Source of the DNA: an uncultured Haloferula sp.
GTDB lineage: Bacteria > Verrucomicrobiota > Verrucomicrobiia > Verrucomicrobiales > Akkermansiaceae
Reading direction: 5' to 3'
Assembly (NCBI GenBank): GCA_965652295.1
Contig: CBFGTS010000001.1
Coordinates: 64,001 to 128,000, forward strand
DNA length: 64,000 nucleotides
Below the pieces are notes generated by a model. It worked only from the letters and a program-made list of their open reading frames with translations. It had not been told where the DNA came from and did no database searches. The translations under genes were made by a program, and so were the position numbers. Each line of letters opens with the position of its first letter. The first letter of the stretch is position 1. Below are positions 18,888 to 24,268 of this stretch, piece after piece.

Positions 18888-21800
18888 TCAATCGGCAATC
18901 ATCAAATCTTCCACCGGCAATTCCCTCAGGATCGCCACGACTTGTCCGGCACGGACGCTGCCGCCTTCGGCAACGAGCAGCTCGATGACCTCGACGGATG
19001 TCTCCGTCTCCACCGGCATTTCCATCTTCATCGCTTCGAGAATCATCACGCCCTTGCCGGCTCCGAGTTGCCCGCCCGCCGCGGCGAGGACCTTCCACAC
19101 GCTGCCCGTCACCGGGCTTTCGAGCGCGATGCAGCCGTGGGGGATGACGAGTTCGTCCTCATCCACGACTTCGGTTTCCACCGGTGCATCCATCACCAAT
19201 CCGGCCGCTTCCCAGCGCTCGCGTTCTTCCTGAAAGGCCCGGCGCTGGTCGGTGCGGAAGGCATCGATCTCCTCCGCGTGGTCATCGAGAAAGCGTTCGT
19301 AGTCCGCGAAACGGAACACGGTTTCCTCGATCTTCAGCTTGTGTCGACCCAGGGGCACGTCCTCGCGGAAACGCAGGAGTTCCTCCGCGCTCACCGGGTA
19401 GAACCGCAGTTGGTCGAAGAATCGCAGCAGCCAGGGCTCGGAGAAATCCTCCGTTTTCCGCCAGCGGTTCCACACCGGGATGGTGCGTCCGGTGAACTGG
19501 TATCCGCCGGGGCCCTCCATGCCGTAGATGCACAGGTAGGCGCCGCCGATGCCGACCGCGTTCTCCGGCGTCCAAGTACGGGCCGGGTTGTACTTCGTCG
19601 TCACCAGCCGGTGCCGCGGATCGAGCGGCGTGGCGACCGGCGCGCCGAGGTAGACGTCGCCCAGGCCCATCACGAGATAGGAGGCGTCGAAGAAAATACG
19701 ATAAACGTCATCGATCGAGTCGAGCCCGTTGATGCGGCGGATGAACTCCAGGTTGCTCGGGCACCATGGTGCGTCGGGCCGCACGCTCTGCATGTACTTG
19801 CGGATGGCTTCCTGCGTGCTCGGGTCGTCCCAGCTCAGCGGCAGGTGGACGATCCGGGTCGGCACCTCGATTTCCGCCAGCGGCGGCAGCGACCGGAGGC
19901 CTTCATCAATGATCGCCCACAAGGCGTCGCGAGCGATCACCCGCGGGTCGAAGTGAACCTGCAACGACCGGATCCCCGGCGTGAGATCGACGATCCCGTC
20001 GATGCCCTTTTCCTTCAGCCACTCATAAACGACGTGGACCTTGAAACGCAGTTTCAGATCGAGGTGATGCGGGCCGAACTCGATCAGGAAATAGCGGTCG
20101 CCCGCACGGCGGACGACGACGGCGTCGTCCTGCTCGCCGAAGCTGGCGAGGATTGCCGATTGAAGATCGAGGATTGCCGGCTGAGGAAGAGGTAGAGCGT
20201 CGAGCGTTCCCGATAGATAGGCATCCAGAGCCTGGCGTTGGTTTTCCGCCCAGGATTCATCGACCGGGACGAAGGTGATCTTGTCTCCCGGGTGGAGCTG
20301 GCCGAGTTTCCACAGCTCGGCCTCGACCACCACGCAGGGGCAGACGAAGCCGCCGAGGCTCGGGCCGTCGGGGCCGAGAATGACGGGCATGTCTCCGGTG
20401 AAATCCACCGCTCCGATGGCGTAGGCATTGTCGTGGAGGTTCGAGGGGTGGAGTCCCGCCTCACCGCCGTCCTTGCGCGCCCACTTCGGCTTCGGACCGA
20501 TCAGGCGGACGCCCGTCCGGGCCGAGTTGTAGTGCACCTCCCAGCTGGTGTCGAAGAAGGTCCCGATGTCTTCCGGTGTGAAAAAGTCCGGGGCACCATG
20601 CGGCCCGTACAAGACCCCGATCCGCCACTCGTTGCTGATCGGAATCTCCTTCCCACAATCTTCCATCTCCAATCTCCAATCGGCAATTCCGAGCACGTCT
20701 CCCGGCAGCAAAGCCCGGCCGAACGGCCCTCCGAACCGGCCGAGCGTGAAGGTCGAGGCGCTGCCGAGATAGAGGGGCGACTCGATCCCGCCGCTGACCG
20801 CGAGGTAGCAGCGCATGCCCGCACCTTCGATGCGACCCACTTTGACGACATCGCCCGCGGCGACATCGAAAGCTCCCTCCACGGCCTCACCGTTCAGCGT
20901 CACCTTCGCCGCCGCGCCGACCACCGCGACCTTCACCGGCGTGTTGAAGCGCAGCGTCGGGCCGGTCATGGTGATCTCCAGCGCAGGCGCTCCTTCCGGA
21001 TTGCCGACGAGGCGGTTGGCGAGGCGGAACGACAGGGAATCGAACGGCCCGCAGGGCGGGACGCCGACCTCCCAATAGCCGGTGCGGCCGGGGAAGTCCT
21101 GGACTGTCGTCATGGTGCCCGGCGATTGCACATCGATGGTGCGCGGCCGGTAGTCGAAACCCGCCATGTCACGCATCGCCACGCCGCCCGTAATGTACGG
21201 CGTCCACCGTACGACCTGCCGCAGGTAGCGGAGGTTGGTTTCAATGCCGGAAATTCGCGACTCGTCGAGCGCCTGCGTCAGTTTCCTCACGGCCGAGTCA
21301 CGGTCGTCGGCATGGACCATCACCTTGCACAGCAGCGGATCGTAAAACGGGCTGACTTTGGTGCCGGGCCGCACCCAGCCGTCGCAGCGGGTCCATTGCG
21401 GGAAATCGGCCTCGGTTAGGAGTCCGGCGCTGGGGCGGAAATTCTGGTTCGGGTCTTCGGCGTAGACGCGGGCCTGGATCGCGCAGCCCTGCGGCGCCGG
21501 TACGACCCCGGGCATGACCCACTGTGGGTCGAGCGCCAGCCGGATCATCCATTCGACGAGATCGACGCCGGTGACCATCTCCGTGACCCCGTGCTCGACC
21601 TGAAGGCGGGTGTTCACTTCCAGAAAAAAGAAGTCGCTGCGATCGGCGTCGTAGATGAATTCAACCGTGCCGGCGGAGCGGTAGTTCACGCTTTCGCCGA
21701 GCTGCACCGCCGCGGCGTGAAGTGCCGCGCGGGTTTCGTCGGTGAGGCCCGGCGCGGGCGTTTCCTCGAAGACCTTCTGATTGCGGCGCTGCACCGAGCA

Positions 21801-22508
21801 ATCGCGCTCACCGAGCGCGAGCACACGGCCGTTGCCATCGCCGAAAATCTGCACCTCGACGTGGCGTCCGCGTTCGATGAAACGTTCGACGAACACCCCG
21901 CCCGAGCCGAAACTGCGTTCGCTGAGCCGCACCACGCTTTCGAACTCGCGGCGCAGCTCCTCCGGATCGCGGCAGACCTTCATGCCGATTCCGCCGCCGC
22001 CCGCCGTGCTTTTGAGCATGACCGGGAACCCGATCTCCGCCGCCGCCGTGACCGCCGCTTCGGCGTTCTCCAACAAGTCTGTCCCCGGAACCAGTGGCAC
22101 GCCCGCTTCACCTGCCAGACGACGTGCCTCATGCTTCAGTCCGAAGGCGATGATCTGTTCCGGCGTCGGCCCAAGCCACTTCACGCCGGCTTCCTCGCAC
22201 ATCCGGGCGAAGTCGGTGTTTTCGCTGAGCAGACCGTATCCAGGGAAGACCGCGGCCGCACCGGCTTCGCGGGCGATCTCGATCAGACGGTCCTTGAGAA
22301 GATAACTCTCCGAAACCGGCCCCGGCCCGAGTCGATGGGACTCGTCTGCGAGATCGACGTGGGGTGAGGCGCTATCGGGATCCGAGTAGACCGCCACGGC
22401 CTCCATGCCGAGAGCGTGTATCGTGCGGATGGCCCGAGCGGCGATCTCGCCGCGGTTGGCGATGAGGATCTTCGATTTTCGATTGATGATTGACGATTGA
22501 GACATCAT
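18888..22508 (-). CDS. uca: Urea/guanidine carboxylase (biotin-dependent)
   Basis: Biotin carboxylase motifs (ILIANRGEIA, GGGGIGM, RDCSVQRRNQK, EVNTRLQVEH), carboxyltransferase motifs (HPSNLHDNAY, KYNPARTWTP, GPGGYQ) and the biotinyl motif EAMKME. Confidence 0.96.
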   Translation of the reverse strand: MMSQSSIINRKSKILIANRGEIAARAIRTIHALGMEAVAVYSDPDSASPHVDLADESHRLGPGPVSESYLLKDRLIEIAREAGAAAVFPGYGLLSENTDFARMCEEAGVKWLGPTPEQIIAFGLKHEARRLAGEAGVPLVPGTDLLENAEAAVTAAAEIGFPVMLKSTAGGGGIGMKVCRDPEELRREFESVVRLSERSFGSGGVFVERFIERGRHVEVQIFGDGNGRVLALGERDCSVQRRNQKVFEETPAPGLTDETRAALHAAAVQLGESVNYRSAGTVEFIYDADRSDFFFLEVNTRLQVEHGVTEMVTGVDLVEWMIRLALDPQWVMPGVVPAPQGCAIQARVYAEDPNQNFRPSAGLLTEADFPQWTRCDGWVRPGTKVSPFYDPLLCKVMVHADDRDSAVRKLTQALDESRISGIETNLRYLRQVVRWTPYITGGVAMRDMAGFDYRPRTIDVQSPGTMTTVQDFPGRTGYWEVGVPPCGPFDSLSFRLANRLVGNPEGAPALEITMTGPTLRFNTPVKVAVVGAAAKVTLNGEAVEGAFDVAAGDVVKVGRIEGAGMRCYLAVSGGIESPLYLGSASTFTLGRFGGPFGRALLPGDVLGIADWRLEMEDCGKEIPISNEWRIGVLYGPHGAPDFFTPEDIGTFFDTSWEVHYNSARTGVRLIGPKPKWARKDGGEAGLHPSNLHDNAYAIGAVDFTGDMPVILGPDGPSLGGFVCPCVVVEAELWKLGQLHPGDKITFVPVDESWAENQRQALDAYLSGTLDALPLPQPAILDLQSAILASFGEQDDAVVVRRAGDRYFLIEFGPHHLDLKLRFKVHVVYEWLKEKGIDGIVDLTPGIRSLQVHFDPRVIARDALWAIIDEGLRSLPPLAEIEVPTRIVHLPLSWDDPSTQEAIRKYMQSVRPDAPWCPSNLEFIRRINGLDSIDDVYRIFFDASYLVMGLGDVYLGAPVATPLDPRHRLVTTKYNPARTWTPENAVGIGGAYLCIYGMEGPGGYQFTGRTIPVWNRWRKTEDFSEPWLLRFFDQLRFYPVSAEELLRFREDVPLGRHKLKIEETVFRFADYERFLDDHAEEIDAFRTDQRRAFQEERERWEAAGLVMDAPVETEVVDEDELVIPHGCIALESPVTGSVWKVLAAAGGQLGAGKGVMILEAMKMEMPVETETSVEVIELLVAEGGSVRAGQVVAILRELPVEDLMIAD
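18889..18924. repeat. Heptamer array (CAATCNN on +) at the uca 3' end
   Basis: caatcgg caatcat caaatct ... caattcc. Confidence 0.7.
20151..20178. repeat. Heptamer array (GATTGNN on +) inside uca
   Basis: gattgcc gattgaa gatcgag gattgcc, translated as AILDLQSAI. Confidence 0.75.
20656..20690. repeat. Heptamer array (CAATCNN on +) inside uca
   Basis: caatctt ccatctc caatctc caatcgg caattcc, translated as GIADWRLEMEDC. Confidence 0.8.
22467..22501. repeat. Heptamer array (GATTGNN on +) in the uca 5' end
   Basis: gatcttc gattttc gattgat gattgac gattgag, translated as the N-terminal extension SQSSIINRKSKI. Confidence 0.85.
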
Positions 22509-22521
22509 GGCGCTTTGCGCG

Positions 22522-24234: not shown

Positions 24235-24240
24235 TTCTTT

Positions 24241-24268
24241 CAATCGGCAATCTCCAATCGTGAATCTT
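24241..24268. repeat. Heptamer array (CAATCNN on +) between the regulator and cgdA
   Basis: caatcgg caatctc caatcgt gaatctt, filling most of the intergenic gap. Confidence 0.8.

What the first reader, a model, noticed from the sequence alone, without database searches (positions are those of the whole stretch)
18889..24268. Operon-wide network of heptamer repeat arrays tied to a four-helix-bundle gene
Seen: six arrays of 4-5 degenerate 7-mers, which I saw only in the carboxylase operon. On the mRNA, 5' to 3', they read GATTG (24268-24241), GATTG (22898-22873), CAATC (22501-22467), GATTG (20690-20656), CAATC (20178-20151) and GATTG (18924-18889). They sit at gene junctions and also in frame inside uca, where they encode odd peptides (SSIINRKSKI, IADWRLEMEDC, ILDLQSAI, EDLMIAD). 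Known: the four-helix-bundle family shares its fold with 23S rRNA IVS proteins and with the nucleic-acid-binding DGR accessory protein Avd, and its function outside DGRs is unknown. Inference: this may be an uncharacterised RNA-level system in which the protein recognises or chaperones long-range heptamer duplexes to process, stabilise or translationally tune its host operon. Alternatively it may be a repeat-seeding mobile element.
Basis: partly seen in the sequence, partly recalled or inferred. Interest (0 to 1): 0.85.

Follow-up and report, generated by a model that had tools for sequence, protein, structure and literature searches.

The report
Repeat-seeding mini-gene cassette overwrites operon
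Short runs of a 7-base repeat in this urea-breakdown operon are the two arms of a small inserted gene plus stray copies of a genome-wide repeat family that repeatedly rewrites gene junctions and flexible protein loops; they look like a selfish repeat system, not a control network for the operon.

Summary
The six arrays are real (one is degenerate), but they are not special to this operon: the genome holds about 100 period-7 arrays in about seven unit families. Two of the six are the inverted arms of a 0.43-kb cassette carrying a TIGR02436 four-helix-bundle gene. The other four are solo copies. In 40 orthologous operons the same sites carry arrays in 16 of 36 operons that lack the gene, in other unit families or the opposite orientation, or carry REP-like palindromes instead. 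In Uca the arrays replace loop sequence without lengthening it. MutS and UvrA loops are recolonised in the same way. An operon-wide duplex network is not supported: 4 of 6 operons with both Uca loop arrays have them co-oriented. A tie to the gene is supported statistically: 71 of 110 relatives have inverted arms, same-family solo arrays fall about 7-fold with distance from the gene, and two genomes with no such gene found show background array load. Best reading: a REPtron/IVS-like repeat-seeding element whose carrier has no known catalytic activity; the mechanism is inferred. The scan noted the cassette before on other DNA (28 findings); I found no paper linking gene and repeats.

The parts
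22522..22866 (-). Four-helix-bundle gene (TIGR02436 / PF05635), 114 aa; carrier gene of the cassette
   Evidence: over both cut-offs; model with 4 helices, pLDDT 96; dN/dS 0.076 against G103
22873..22898 (-). Upstream arm (forward sense, 4 units); begins in the last codons of UAAP2, holds its stop codon, ends at the carrier's start codon
   Evidence: one extra unit behind 22872 in contigs of runs X3 and X10
22467..22501 (-). Downstream arm (reverse sense); translated as the N-terminal extension of Uca, whose start codon lies inside the cassette
   Evidence: about 30-bp duplex with the upstream arm, z -3.29
24241..24273 (-). Solo array (forward sense) at the nikR-like / UAAP1 junction, starting on the regulator's last codons
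   Evidence: site has an array in 3 of 37 operons
20656..20690 (-). Solo array (forward sense), in frame, replacing variable loop A of Uca (about aa 609-620)
   Evidence: site has an array in 10 of 40 operons, both senses, several families
20151..20178 (-). Solo array (reverse sense), in frame, replacing variable loop B of Uca (about aa 780-790)
   Evidence: site has an array in 10 of 40 operons, two families switch among close relatives
18889..18924 (-). Degenerate solo array (forward sense) forming the Uca C-terminal tail and stop
   Evidence: below scan cut-off here, clean in G103; site has an array in 5 of 38 operons
18888..22508 (-). Host gene: urea carboxylase (uca), intact, 1206 aa
   Evidence: TIGR02712, 1776 bits
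22886..23518 (-). Host gene: UAAP2
   Evidence: TIGR03424
23518..24234 (-). Host gene: UAAP1
   Evidence: TIGR03425
24268..24726 (-). Host gene: NikR-like regulator (below the equivalog cut-off)
17158..18882 (-). Host gene: allophanate hydrolase
   Evidence: TIGR02713

Best explanation
A selfish or semi-domesticated repeat-seeding system. Shown: the unit is arm-gene-arm, a four-helix-bundle gene between inverted arrays of about four 7-mers; here it sits at the UAAP2/uca junction. The other four arrays are solo arms of the same family. Arms start on host codons that resemble a unit (often an Ile codon) at the edge of conserved coding DNA and run one way into dispensable DNA, replacing 20-40 nt; only junctions and tolerant loops keep them; an occupied site can be rewritten by another family. 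Inferred: the protein binds arm sequence of its own family as single-stranded DNA or RNA and promotes short-patch copying (template switch or gene conversion primed on the seed), more often near its own gene. The host operon is a landing ground, not the target of a dedicated control circuit.
For: All 3 TIGR02436 genes of the genome are bracketed by inverted arms, each of a different family, and these are the three largest families (21, 18, 15 arrays). 71 of 110 relatives have inverted same-family arms; control windows 8 and 5 of 91. The window's protein clade keeps a window-type core across about 14 phyla and none of 80 distant relatives lies in a uca operon. Same-family solo arrays per 100 kb: 12.0 within 1 kb, 5.3, 1.7, 1.2, 2.4 at 7.5-10 kb. 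The anchored end lies within 25 nt of a gene end in 31 of 40 junction arrays, the far end in 17 of 40. One family's 30-mer arm has 5 exact copies genome-wide. Family or orientation switches at one site with little or no length change occur in Uca, MutS and UvrA. Array load per 400 kb: 2 and 1 in two genomes with no TIGR02436 found, 6 and 9.3 in two with the gene, background 0-3; G119 keeps the repeat-derived peptide but not the DNA period at two sites where its sister G076 keeps both.
Against: No catalytic activity is known or shown for the protein and no movement was observed. Coupling of protein clade to unit family is loose: G205 and G232 hold window-type arrays but none of their recovered carriers has window-type arms, and other clades carry such arms in G237 and G251. 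A crude genus-level table showed no association (both 4, DNA only 12, protein only 6, neither 12; only 2 DNA candidates scored per genome). Window-family arrays are not exact copies of the arms (1 copy at 18 nt or more). The load comparison is 2 genomes against 2, draft assemblies, related. Other-family arrays are also about 1.8-fold denser near the gene. The four uca-linked carriers form one clade and diverge in step with Uca (84, 75, 65% against 89, 77, 59%), so this copy has not moved recently. The MutS array in G000 adds 7 aa net, so replacement is not always length-neutral.
Confidence: 0.6

Rival explanations
1. One reading: the protein recognises long-range heptamer RNA duplexes to process, stabilise or translationally tune the urea carboxylase operon (weak form: only the arm duplex matters, coupling translation of the carrier and uca to ribosomes finishing UAAP2).
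For: The arm duplex folds well (z -3.29) and would bury the UAAP2 stop, the carrier's AUG and one uca AUG (pairing probability 0.8-1.0). Loop A and loop B arrays pair in the minimum-energy and centroid structures. The gene is under purifying selection. Avd-like fold.
Against: 36 of 40 operons lack the gene, 16 of them with arrays. Loop arrays are co-oriented in 4 of 6 operons with both. The loop A/B segment folds no better than shuffles (z -1.07). Unlinked arrays pair with the second reverse array at -45.7 and -40.7 kcal/mol against -37.0 and -41.1 for the operon's own. An IVS-type cut in the arm duplex would separate uca from its start codon in G000, G103 and G022 (inference). A near-identical strain has a 1-nt deletion in the carrier ORF (one contig, run X3).
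Confidence: 0.12
2. Retro-overwriting: the Avd-fold protein binds arm RNA and borrows a reverse transcriptase in trans; a nicked host strand ending in a seed primes cDNA on the arm and the new flap replaces downstream DNA (DGR-like, natural prime editing).
For: Seed-anchored, one-directional replacement. Fold match to Avd (TM 0.73-0.79, E 0.11-0.2, 9% identity). DGR retrohoming replaces its target and needs Avd (PMC10053308, passages). The genome has 2 reverse transcriptase genes.
Against: Neither RT gene lies near a carrier. No template/variable repeat pair was seen. Cores keep their adenines in several families, unlike adenine-directed DGR mutagenesis (recalled property). REP-like elements replace the same loops, so replacement does not need this route.
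Confidence: 0.12
3. No role for the protein: the arrays are tolerated simple repeats that grow by slippage and spread by ordinary gene conversion; the gene hitch-hikes between two of them.
For: Unit number varies between strains. Arrays persist in genomes where no cognate carrier was recovered. Selection against stops and for tolerant loops can explain placement.
Against: Inverted, inward-reading arms on 71 of 110 relatives; clade-linked cores across phyla; a fixed-order 30-mer in 5 copies; low load where the gene was not found; anchoring on one end more than the other.
Confidence: 0.09
4. The arms are moved in trans by RAYT/HUH transposases, as REPINs are thought to be; the four-helix gene is cargo.
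For: 13 Y1_Tnp matches in the genome. REP-like elements use the same sites and sit between forward and reverse arms in MutS loops. Empty inverted pairs exist.
Against: Units are tandem 7-mers, not palindromes. Most are singlets, whereas 61% of REPs in the REPIN paper are doublets (PMC3116915, passages). Arms track the four-helix gene, not RAYT genes.
Confidence: 0.07

Closest known systems
REPtron / REPIN system (RAYT gene flanked by REPs; PMC3116915 and PMC3733652, passages read)
   Same: One carrier gene per repeat family, flanked by inverted repeats of that family; gene-less pairs and singlets dispersed; repeats abut or overlap gene ends; in-frame copies in repair genes such as uvrA, also in Verrucomicrobia.
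   Different: The carrier is a 114-aa four-helix bundle, not an HUH transposase; arms are tandem 7-mers, not palindromes; singlets dominate.
ORF-bearing 23S rRNA intervening sequences (S23p; PMC4990558, abstract and Introduction read)
   Same: Same protein family (PF05635) enclosed by complementary borders; an element replaces a small tolerant loop.
   Different: Sits in mRNA operons; arms overlap host stop and start codons and are translated; an RNase III-type cut would behead uca; solo arms spread through the genome.
Heptamer simple repeats of Xanthomonas and Nostoc (PMC4692102, passages read)
   Same: About four units; within 50 bp of a stop on the sense strand or upstream of a start on the antisense strand; convergent inverted pairs; some intragenic.
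   Different: That paper reads them as G-quadruplex formers and found no link to mobile elements; the word 'helix' does not occur in its main text. The families here are mostly not G-tract repeats and are tied to a carrier gene.
Diversity-generating retroelements (Avd; PMC10053308, passages read)
   Same: Carrier shares the Avd fold; target sequence is replaced.
   Different: No linked reverse transcriptase, no template/variable repeat pair, no adenine-directed pattern.
Rickettsia palindromic elements (as cited in PMC3733652, passage)
   Same: Selfish repeats in frame in functional genes.
   Different: Longer palindromes that add sequence; no carrier gene; no family switching at one site was described in the passages seen.

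Membership tests
TIGR02436 / PF05635 four-helix-bundle proteins | Score above the curated cut-offs | tested here: met
   79 bits against 24; 56.2 against 33.8
TIGR02436 / PF05635 four-helix-bundle proteins | Four-helix fold like BT_0352 and Xcc0516 | tested here: met
   TM 0.89 to 2rld, 0.85 to 2gsc
TIGR02436 / PF05635 four-helix-bundle proteins | Homopentamer | not tested
   reported for Xcc0516; no complex job sent
ORF-bearing rRNA intervening sequence | Located in a 16S or 23S rRNA gene | tested here: not met
   lies between UAAP2 and uca; the genome's other two lie at pheS/pheT and between ribonucleotide reductase genes
ORF-bearing rRNA intervening sequence | Complementary borders forming a stem around the ORF | tested here: met
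   predicted only: about 30 bp, z -3.29
ORF-bearing rRNA intervening sequence | Cut out of the RNA by RNase III | not testable with these tools
   needs RNA ends; anatomy argues against it here
REPtron / REPIN | Carrier is an HUH (Y1) transposase | tested here: not met
   only PF05635 matches the carrier; none of the 13 Y1_Tnp matches is in the operon
REPtron / REPIN | Repeat unit is a short palindrome | tested here: not met
   tandem period-7 units
REPtron / REPIN | Carrier flanked by its own family; family dispersed as pairs and singlets | tested here: met
REPtron / REPIN | Doublets are the dominant form | tested here: not met
   3 cassettes and 5 short empty pairs among about 84 family arrays
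Diversity-generating retroelement | Linked reverse transcriptase | tested here: not met
   RT genes on C35 and C3, carriers on C1, C7, C28
Diversity-generating retroelement | Template/variable repeat pair differing at adenines | tested here: inconclusive
   not seen in the arrays inspected; no dedicated genome search was run
Diversity-generating retroelement | Avd-fold accessory protein | tested here: met
   fold only: TM 0.73-0.79, E 0.11-0.2, 9% identity

The most novel reading that the evidence does not exclude
The four-helix-bundle protein and its arms are a natural short-patch sequence writer: each protein clade recognises its own 7-mer family, primes on a 4-7-nt host seed and overwrites the next 20-40 nt, mostly near its own gene. 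This would explain the long-noted excess of 7-mer repeats in bacteria, give a function to the IVS/Avd protein family outside DGRs, and make it a steady source of new loop peptides in core enzymes (Uca, MutS, UvrA).
Probability: 0.2. Interest if true: 0.9.

Novelty: new variant of a known kind. Interest (0 to 1): 0.6.

Why it matters
Two open questions become testable together: why 7-mer repeats are over-represented in many bacteria (PMC4692102 notes the excess and the lack of detailed study) and what TIGR02436/S23p proteins do. TIGR02436 matches were found in 237 of 301 genomes of this family, so the system is common. This locus adds three things that can be tested: the same protein loops are rewritten again and again by different repeat families with little length change, same-family copies thin out with distance from the carrier, and arrays appear to decay in genomes where no carrier was found. 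It also warns that repeat-coded peptides at protein ends and loops in these phyla are DNA-repeat products. For the urea carboxylase operon itself the finding is probably ordinary.

Tried and rejected
RNA evidence: no RNA holder listed; only DNA contigs could be laid; none of the joints shown skips the cassette (58 joints not shown; contigs drop rare forms). Split uca with a cassette in a loop: the partial matches G252 and G294 end at contig ends, so no evidence. Full cassette inside MutS loops: 0 of 5 long loops held the gene. More carriers hidden in the genome: a custom profile found only the same 3; long arrays break several contig ends, so some may be unassembled. Operon-specific complementarity: rejected. 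Conserved loop A/B hairpin: rejected, 2 of 6. Genus-wide array counts by DNA search: too crude, 2 candidates scored per genome. One of three UvrA sites failed to anchor (0 of 0). The careful tree did not finish; the quick tree was used and rows L084, L102 and L188 were wrong-frame picks and are ignored. G255 was dropped from the operon table as partial (40 of 41 used). No weight-matrix scan from a fixed unit list was run, so weak arrays are under-counted. No complex prediction was sent. Paper searches for a link between the gene family and heptamer arrays gave none: (listings and abstract starts seen); two searches gave the REP papers. The library lacks most subscription journals and I read no supplements; supplementary file 3 of PMC3733652 (intragenic repeats) may bear on the in-frame claims.
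Full report
1. Observation. The minus-strand operon is nikR-like, UAAP1, UAAP2, a 114-aa TIGR02436 gene, urea carboxylase (uca) and allophanate hydrolase. Five of the six arrays were recovered at the stated places and senses. 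The sixth, at the uca C-terminus, has a 1-nt phase slip and missed the cut-offs, but G103 has a clean array there. Period-7 arrays far exceed chance: 102 at lag 7 against 4, 22, 25 and 18 at lags 5, 8, 10 and 11. I call the sense that reads toward the gene 'forward' and the other 'reverse'.

2. The arrays are genome-wide. 12 of 17 arrays of the window's type lie on 9 other contigs, for example in the urease operon and in frame in mutS and alaS. Clustering gave seven families of 21, 18, 15, 12, 9, 5 and 4 arrays, with 18 left in small groups. 25 arrays of six families lie inside ORFs by my own gene calls. The genome has three TIGR02436 genes: here, at pheS/pheT, and between the two ribonucleotide reductase genes. 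Each is bracketed by an inverted pair, each of a different family, and those are the three largest families. Five short gene-less inverted pairs also exist, two of them in frame. Arrays cluster: 28 of 84 have a neighbour at 0.6-5 kb (random 13.4, p 0.002) and 14 a same-family neighbour (label shuffle 7.4, p 0.027); this operon itself supplies several of these.

3. The cassette is general. Of 110 loci (30 top family hits and 80 relatives at 52-70% identity), 87 have an upstream array, 97 a downstream one, 79 both and 71 an inverted same-family pair; control windows 1 kb away scored 8 and 5 of 91. None of the 80 lies in a uca operon. On a quick tree the window's clade mostly keeps a window-type core over about 14 phyla while other clades carry other cores (three wrong-frame rows ignored; kin share labels, so this is not a test of co-evolution). 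The coupling is loose: the clade carries several cores within the host family, other clades carry window-type arms in G237 and G251, and G205 and G232 have window-type arrays with no matching carrier recovered. A crude genus table showed no association.

4. Local seeding. In the flanks of the 80 loci, after dropping 17 arrays that are arms of second carriers, same-family solo arrays per 100 kb run 12.0 (0-1 kb; 18 arrays, 13 loci), 5.3, 1.7, 1.2 and 2.4 (7.5-10 kb); near against far 29 to 8, p 2e-5, loci not independent. Other families run 12.0, 13.5, 10.6, 6.8, 7.7. Lags 8 and 10 stay at 0-4. Four solo copies within 3.6 kb of the carrier in this operon fit this gradient.

5. Orthologous operons. 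uca was found in 58 of 301 family genomes. I compared 40 operons (41 fetched or own, G255 dropped). Only 4 carry the gene (G000, G103, G022, G089), always at the UAAP2/uca junction with both arms visible (the G089 downstream arm fell below the cut-off). The four proteins form one clade and diverge in step with Uca, so this copy is old or homes to this site; dN/dS against G103 is 0.076. The six sites carry arrays in 3/37, 7/39, 7/40, 10/40, 10/40 and 5/38 operons (control 0.5% of 1200 windows); 16 of 36 operons without the gene have at least one and 8 have two or more (in that call the G000 loop A array was auto-labelled as the neighbouring family, while one search placed it in the window family). 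Loop A spans 84 nt in G000 and 84-120 in all; loop B 75 nt and 60-102: the arrays replace sequence. Loop B switches family among G205/G211 and G232/G237. Loop A holds forward arrays, reverse arrays or REP-like palindrome pairs in different relatives, and the UAAP2/uca junction holds REP-like or 9-11-nt-unit repeats ('REP-like' is my reading by eye).

6. Other genes behave alike. One MutS loop holds arrays of several families in about 13 of 28 alignable orthologues (by eye); in G000 38 nt stand where G151 has 17. Two UvrA loops hold arrays in 11 of 30 and 9 of 30 orthologues; at one, G000 and G103 have different families over 30 and 29 aa.

7. Polarity and seeds. The 5' end of the forward-reading strand lies within 25 nt of a gene end in 31 of 40 junction arrays, the other end in 17 of 40. 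In the alignments the arrays begin on conserved host codons that resemble a unit, often Ile, and run into dispensable DNA. The same placement rule is published for heptamer repeats of Xanthomonas and Nostoc, without a carrier gene (PMC4692102, passages). One family's 30-mer arm has 5 exact copies in the genome, while window-family arrays share no exact 18-mer with the arms. Contigs of two runs have one more unit in the upstream arm, and one has a 1-nt deletion in the carrier ORF.

8. Maintenance. In 400-kb samples, G119 and G151 (no TIGR02436 found) gave 2 and 1 arrays, at background; G076 (5 genes) gave 6 and G000 averages 9.3. G119 keeps repeat-derived peptides where its sister G076 also keeps the DNA period. 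This is 2 against 2 and only suggestive.

9. The RNA-network idea. The two arms can form a stem of about 30 bp that would bury the UAAP2 stop and both start codons. The loop A/B pair also forms in the predicted fold but the segment is no more stable than shuffles, is invertible in only 2 of 6 operons with both arrays, and unlinked arrays pair as well. In G000, G103 and G022 the uca start codon lies inside the cassette, so an IVS-type cut would behead uca. I therefore reject the network and leave open a local effect of the arm stem.

10. Mechanism. Shown: anatomy, recurrence, replacement, polarity, gradient. Inferred: the protein binds its own arm family and promotes seed-primed short-patch copying (0.6 for a protein-dependent repeat-seeding element; the chemistry is not known). 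The protein has the S23/IVS fold (TM 0.85-0.89) and resembles Avd (TM 0.73-0.79); an acidic cluster is invariant in 36 close relatives, a weak hint of a functional site. Rivals: RNA regulation 0.12, borrowed reverse transcriptase 0.12, passive repeats 0.09, RAYT in trans 0.07.

11. Known systems and novelty. It works like a REPtron/REPIN system (one carrier per family, dispersed pairs and singlets, in-frame copies in repair genes; PMC3116915 and PMC3733652, passages) and shares its protein and hairpin with ORF-bearing rRNA IVSs (PMC4990558, abstract and Introduction). It fails a defining test for each, and for DGRs (PMC10053308, passages). Seven paper searches found no link between the gene family and heptamer arrays. 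The scan's own notes report the cassette in at least 28 genomes and in-frame overwriting elsewhere; these are unchecked AI notes and I tested the claims I use. Verdict: new variant of a known kind; interest 0.6.

Noticed in passing
G000:C12:8307-8648, C8:100371-100709, C6:28949-29290: All three GxxExxY (TIGR04256) genes are bracketed by inverted arrays of 9-10-nt units, a parallel arm-gene-arm design; similar arrays sit at the UAAP2/uca junction of G217, G007, G227 and G204.
   Followed up: partly
L226:385-1839 (G254): Thiamine-phosphate synthase fused in frame to a four-helix-bundle domain through a translated heptamer arm.
   Followed up: partly
L244:784-1788 (G251): Four-helix-bundle fragment fused in frame, through a translated arm, to a LuxR-type response regulator.
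   Followed up: partly
L348, L356, L357 (mutS of G180, G085, G166): In-frame composites in one MutS loop: forward arm, REP-like hairpin, reverse arm, adding 35-55 aa.
   Followed up: partly
G000:C7:140860-146712: A 1950-aa double-length UvrA carries five in-frame arrays of three families, including an empty inverted pair.
   Followed up: partly
   Followed up: no
window 22653: One contig of run X3 has a 1-nt deletion inside the four-helix-bundle ORF; X6 and X10 do not.
   Followed up: no
G000:C8 end, C11 start, C16 start, C17 end: Long perfect heptamer arrays break the assembly at four contig ends; further carriers may be unassembled.
   Followed up: no
L003:1735-1775 and 5081-5116 (urease operon): The genome's other urea-use operon also carries window-family arrays at two gene junctions, with no carrier gene.
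   Followed up: partly
window 14603-17110 and 29166-32564: Two long ORFs with acidic low-complexity repeats that look like secreted or surface proteins; not examined.
   Followed up: no
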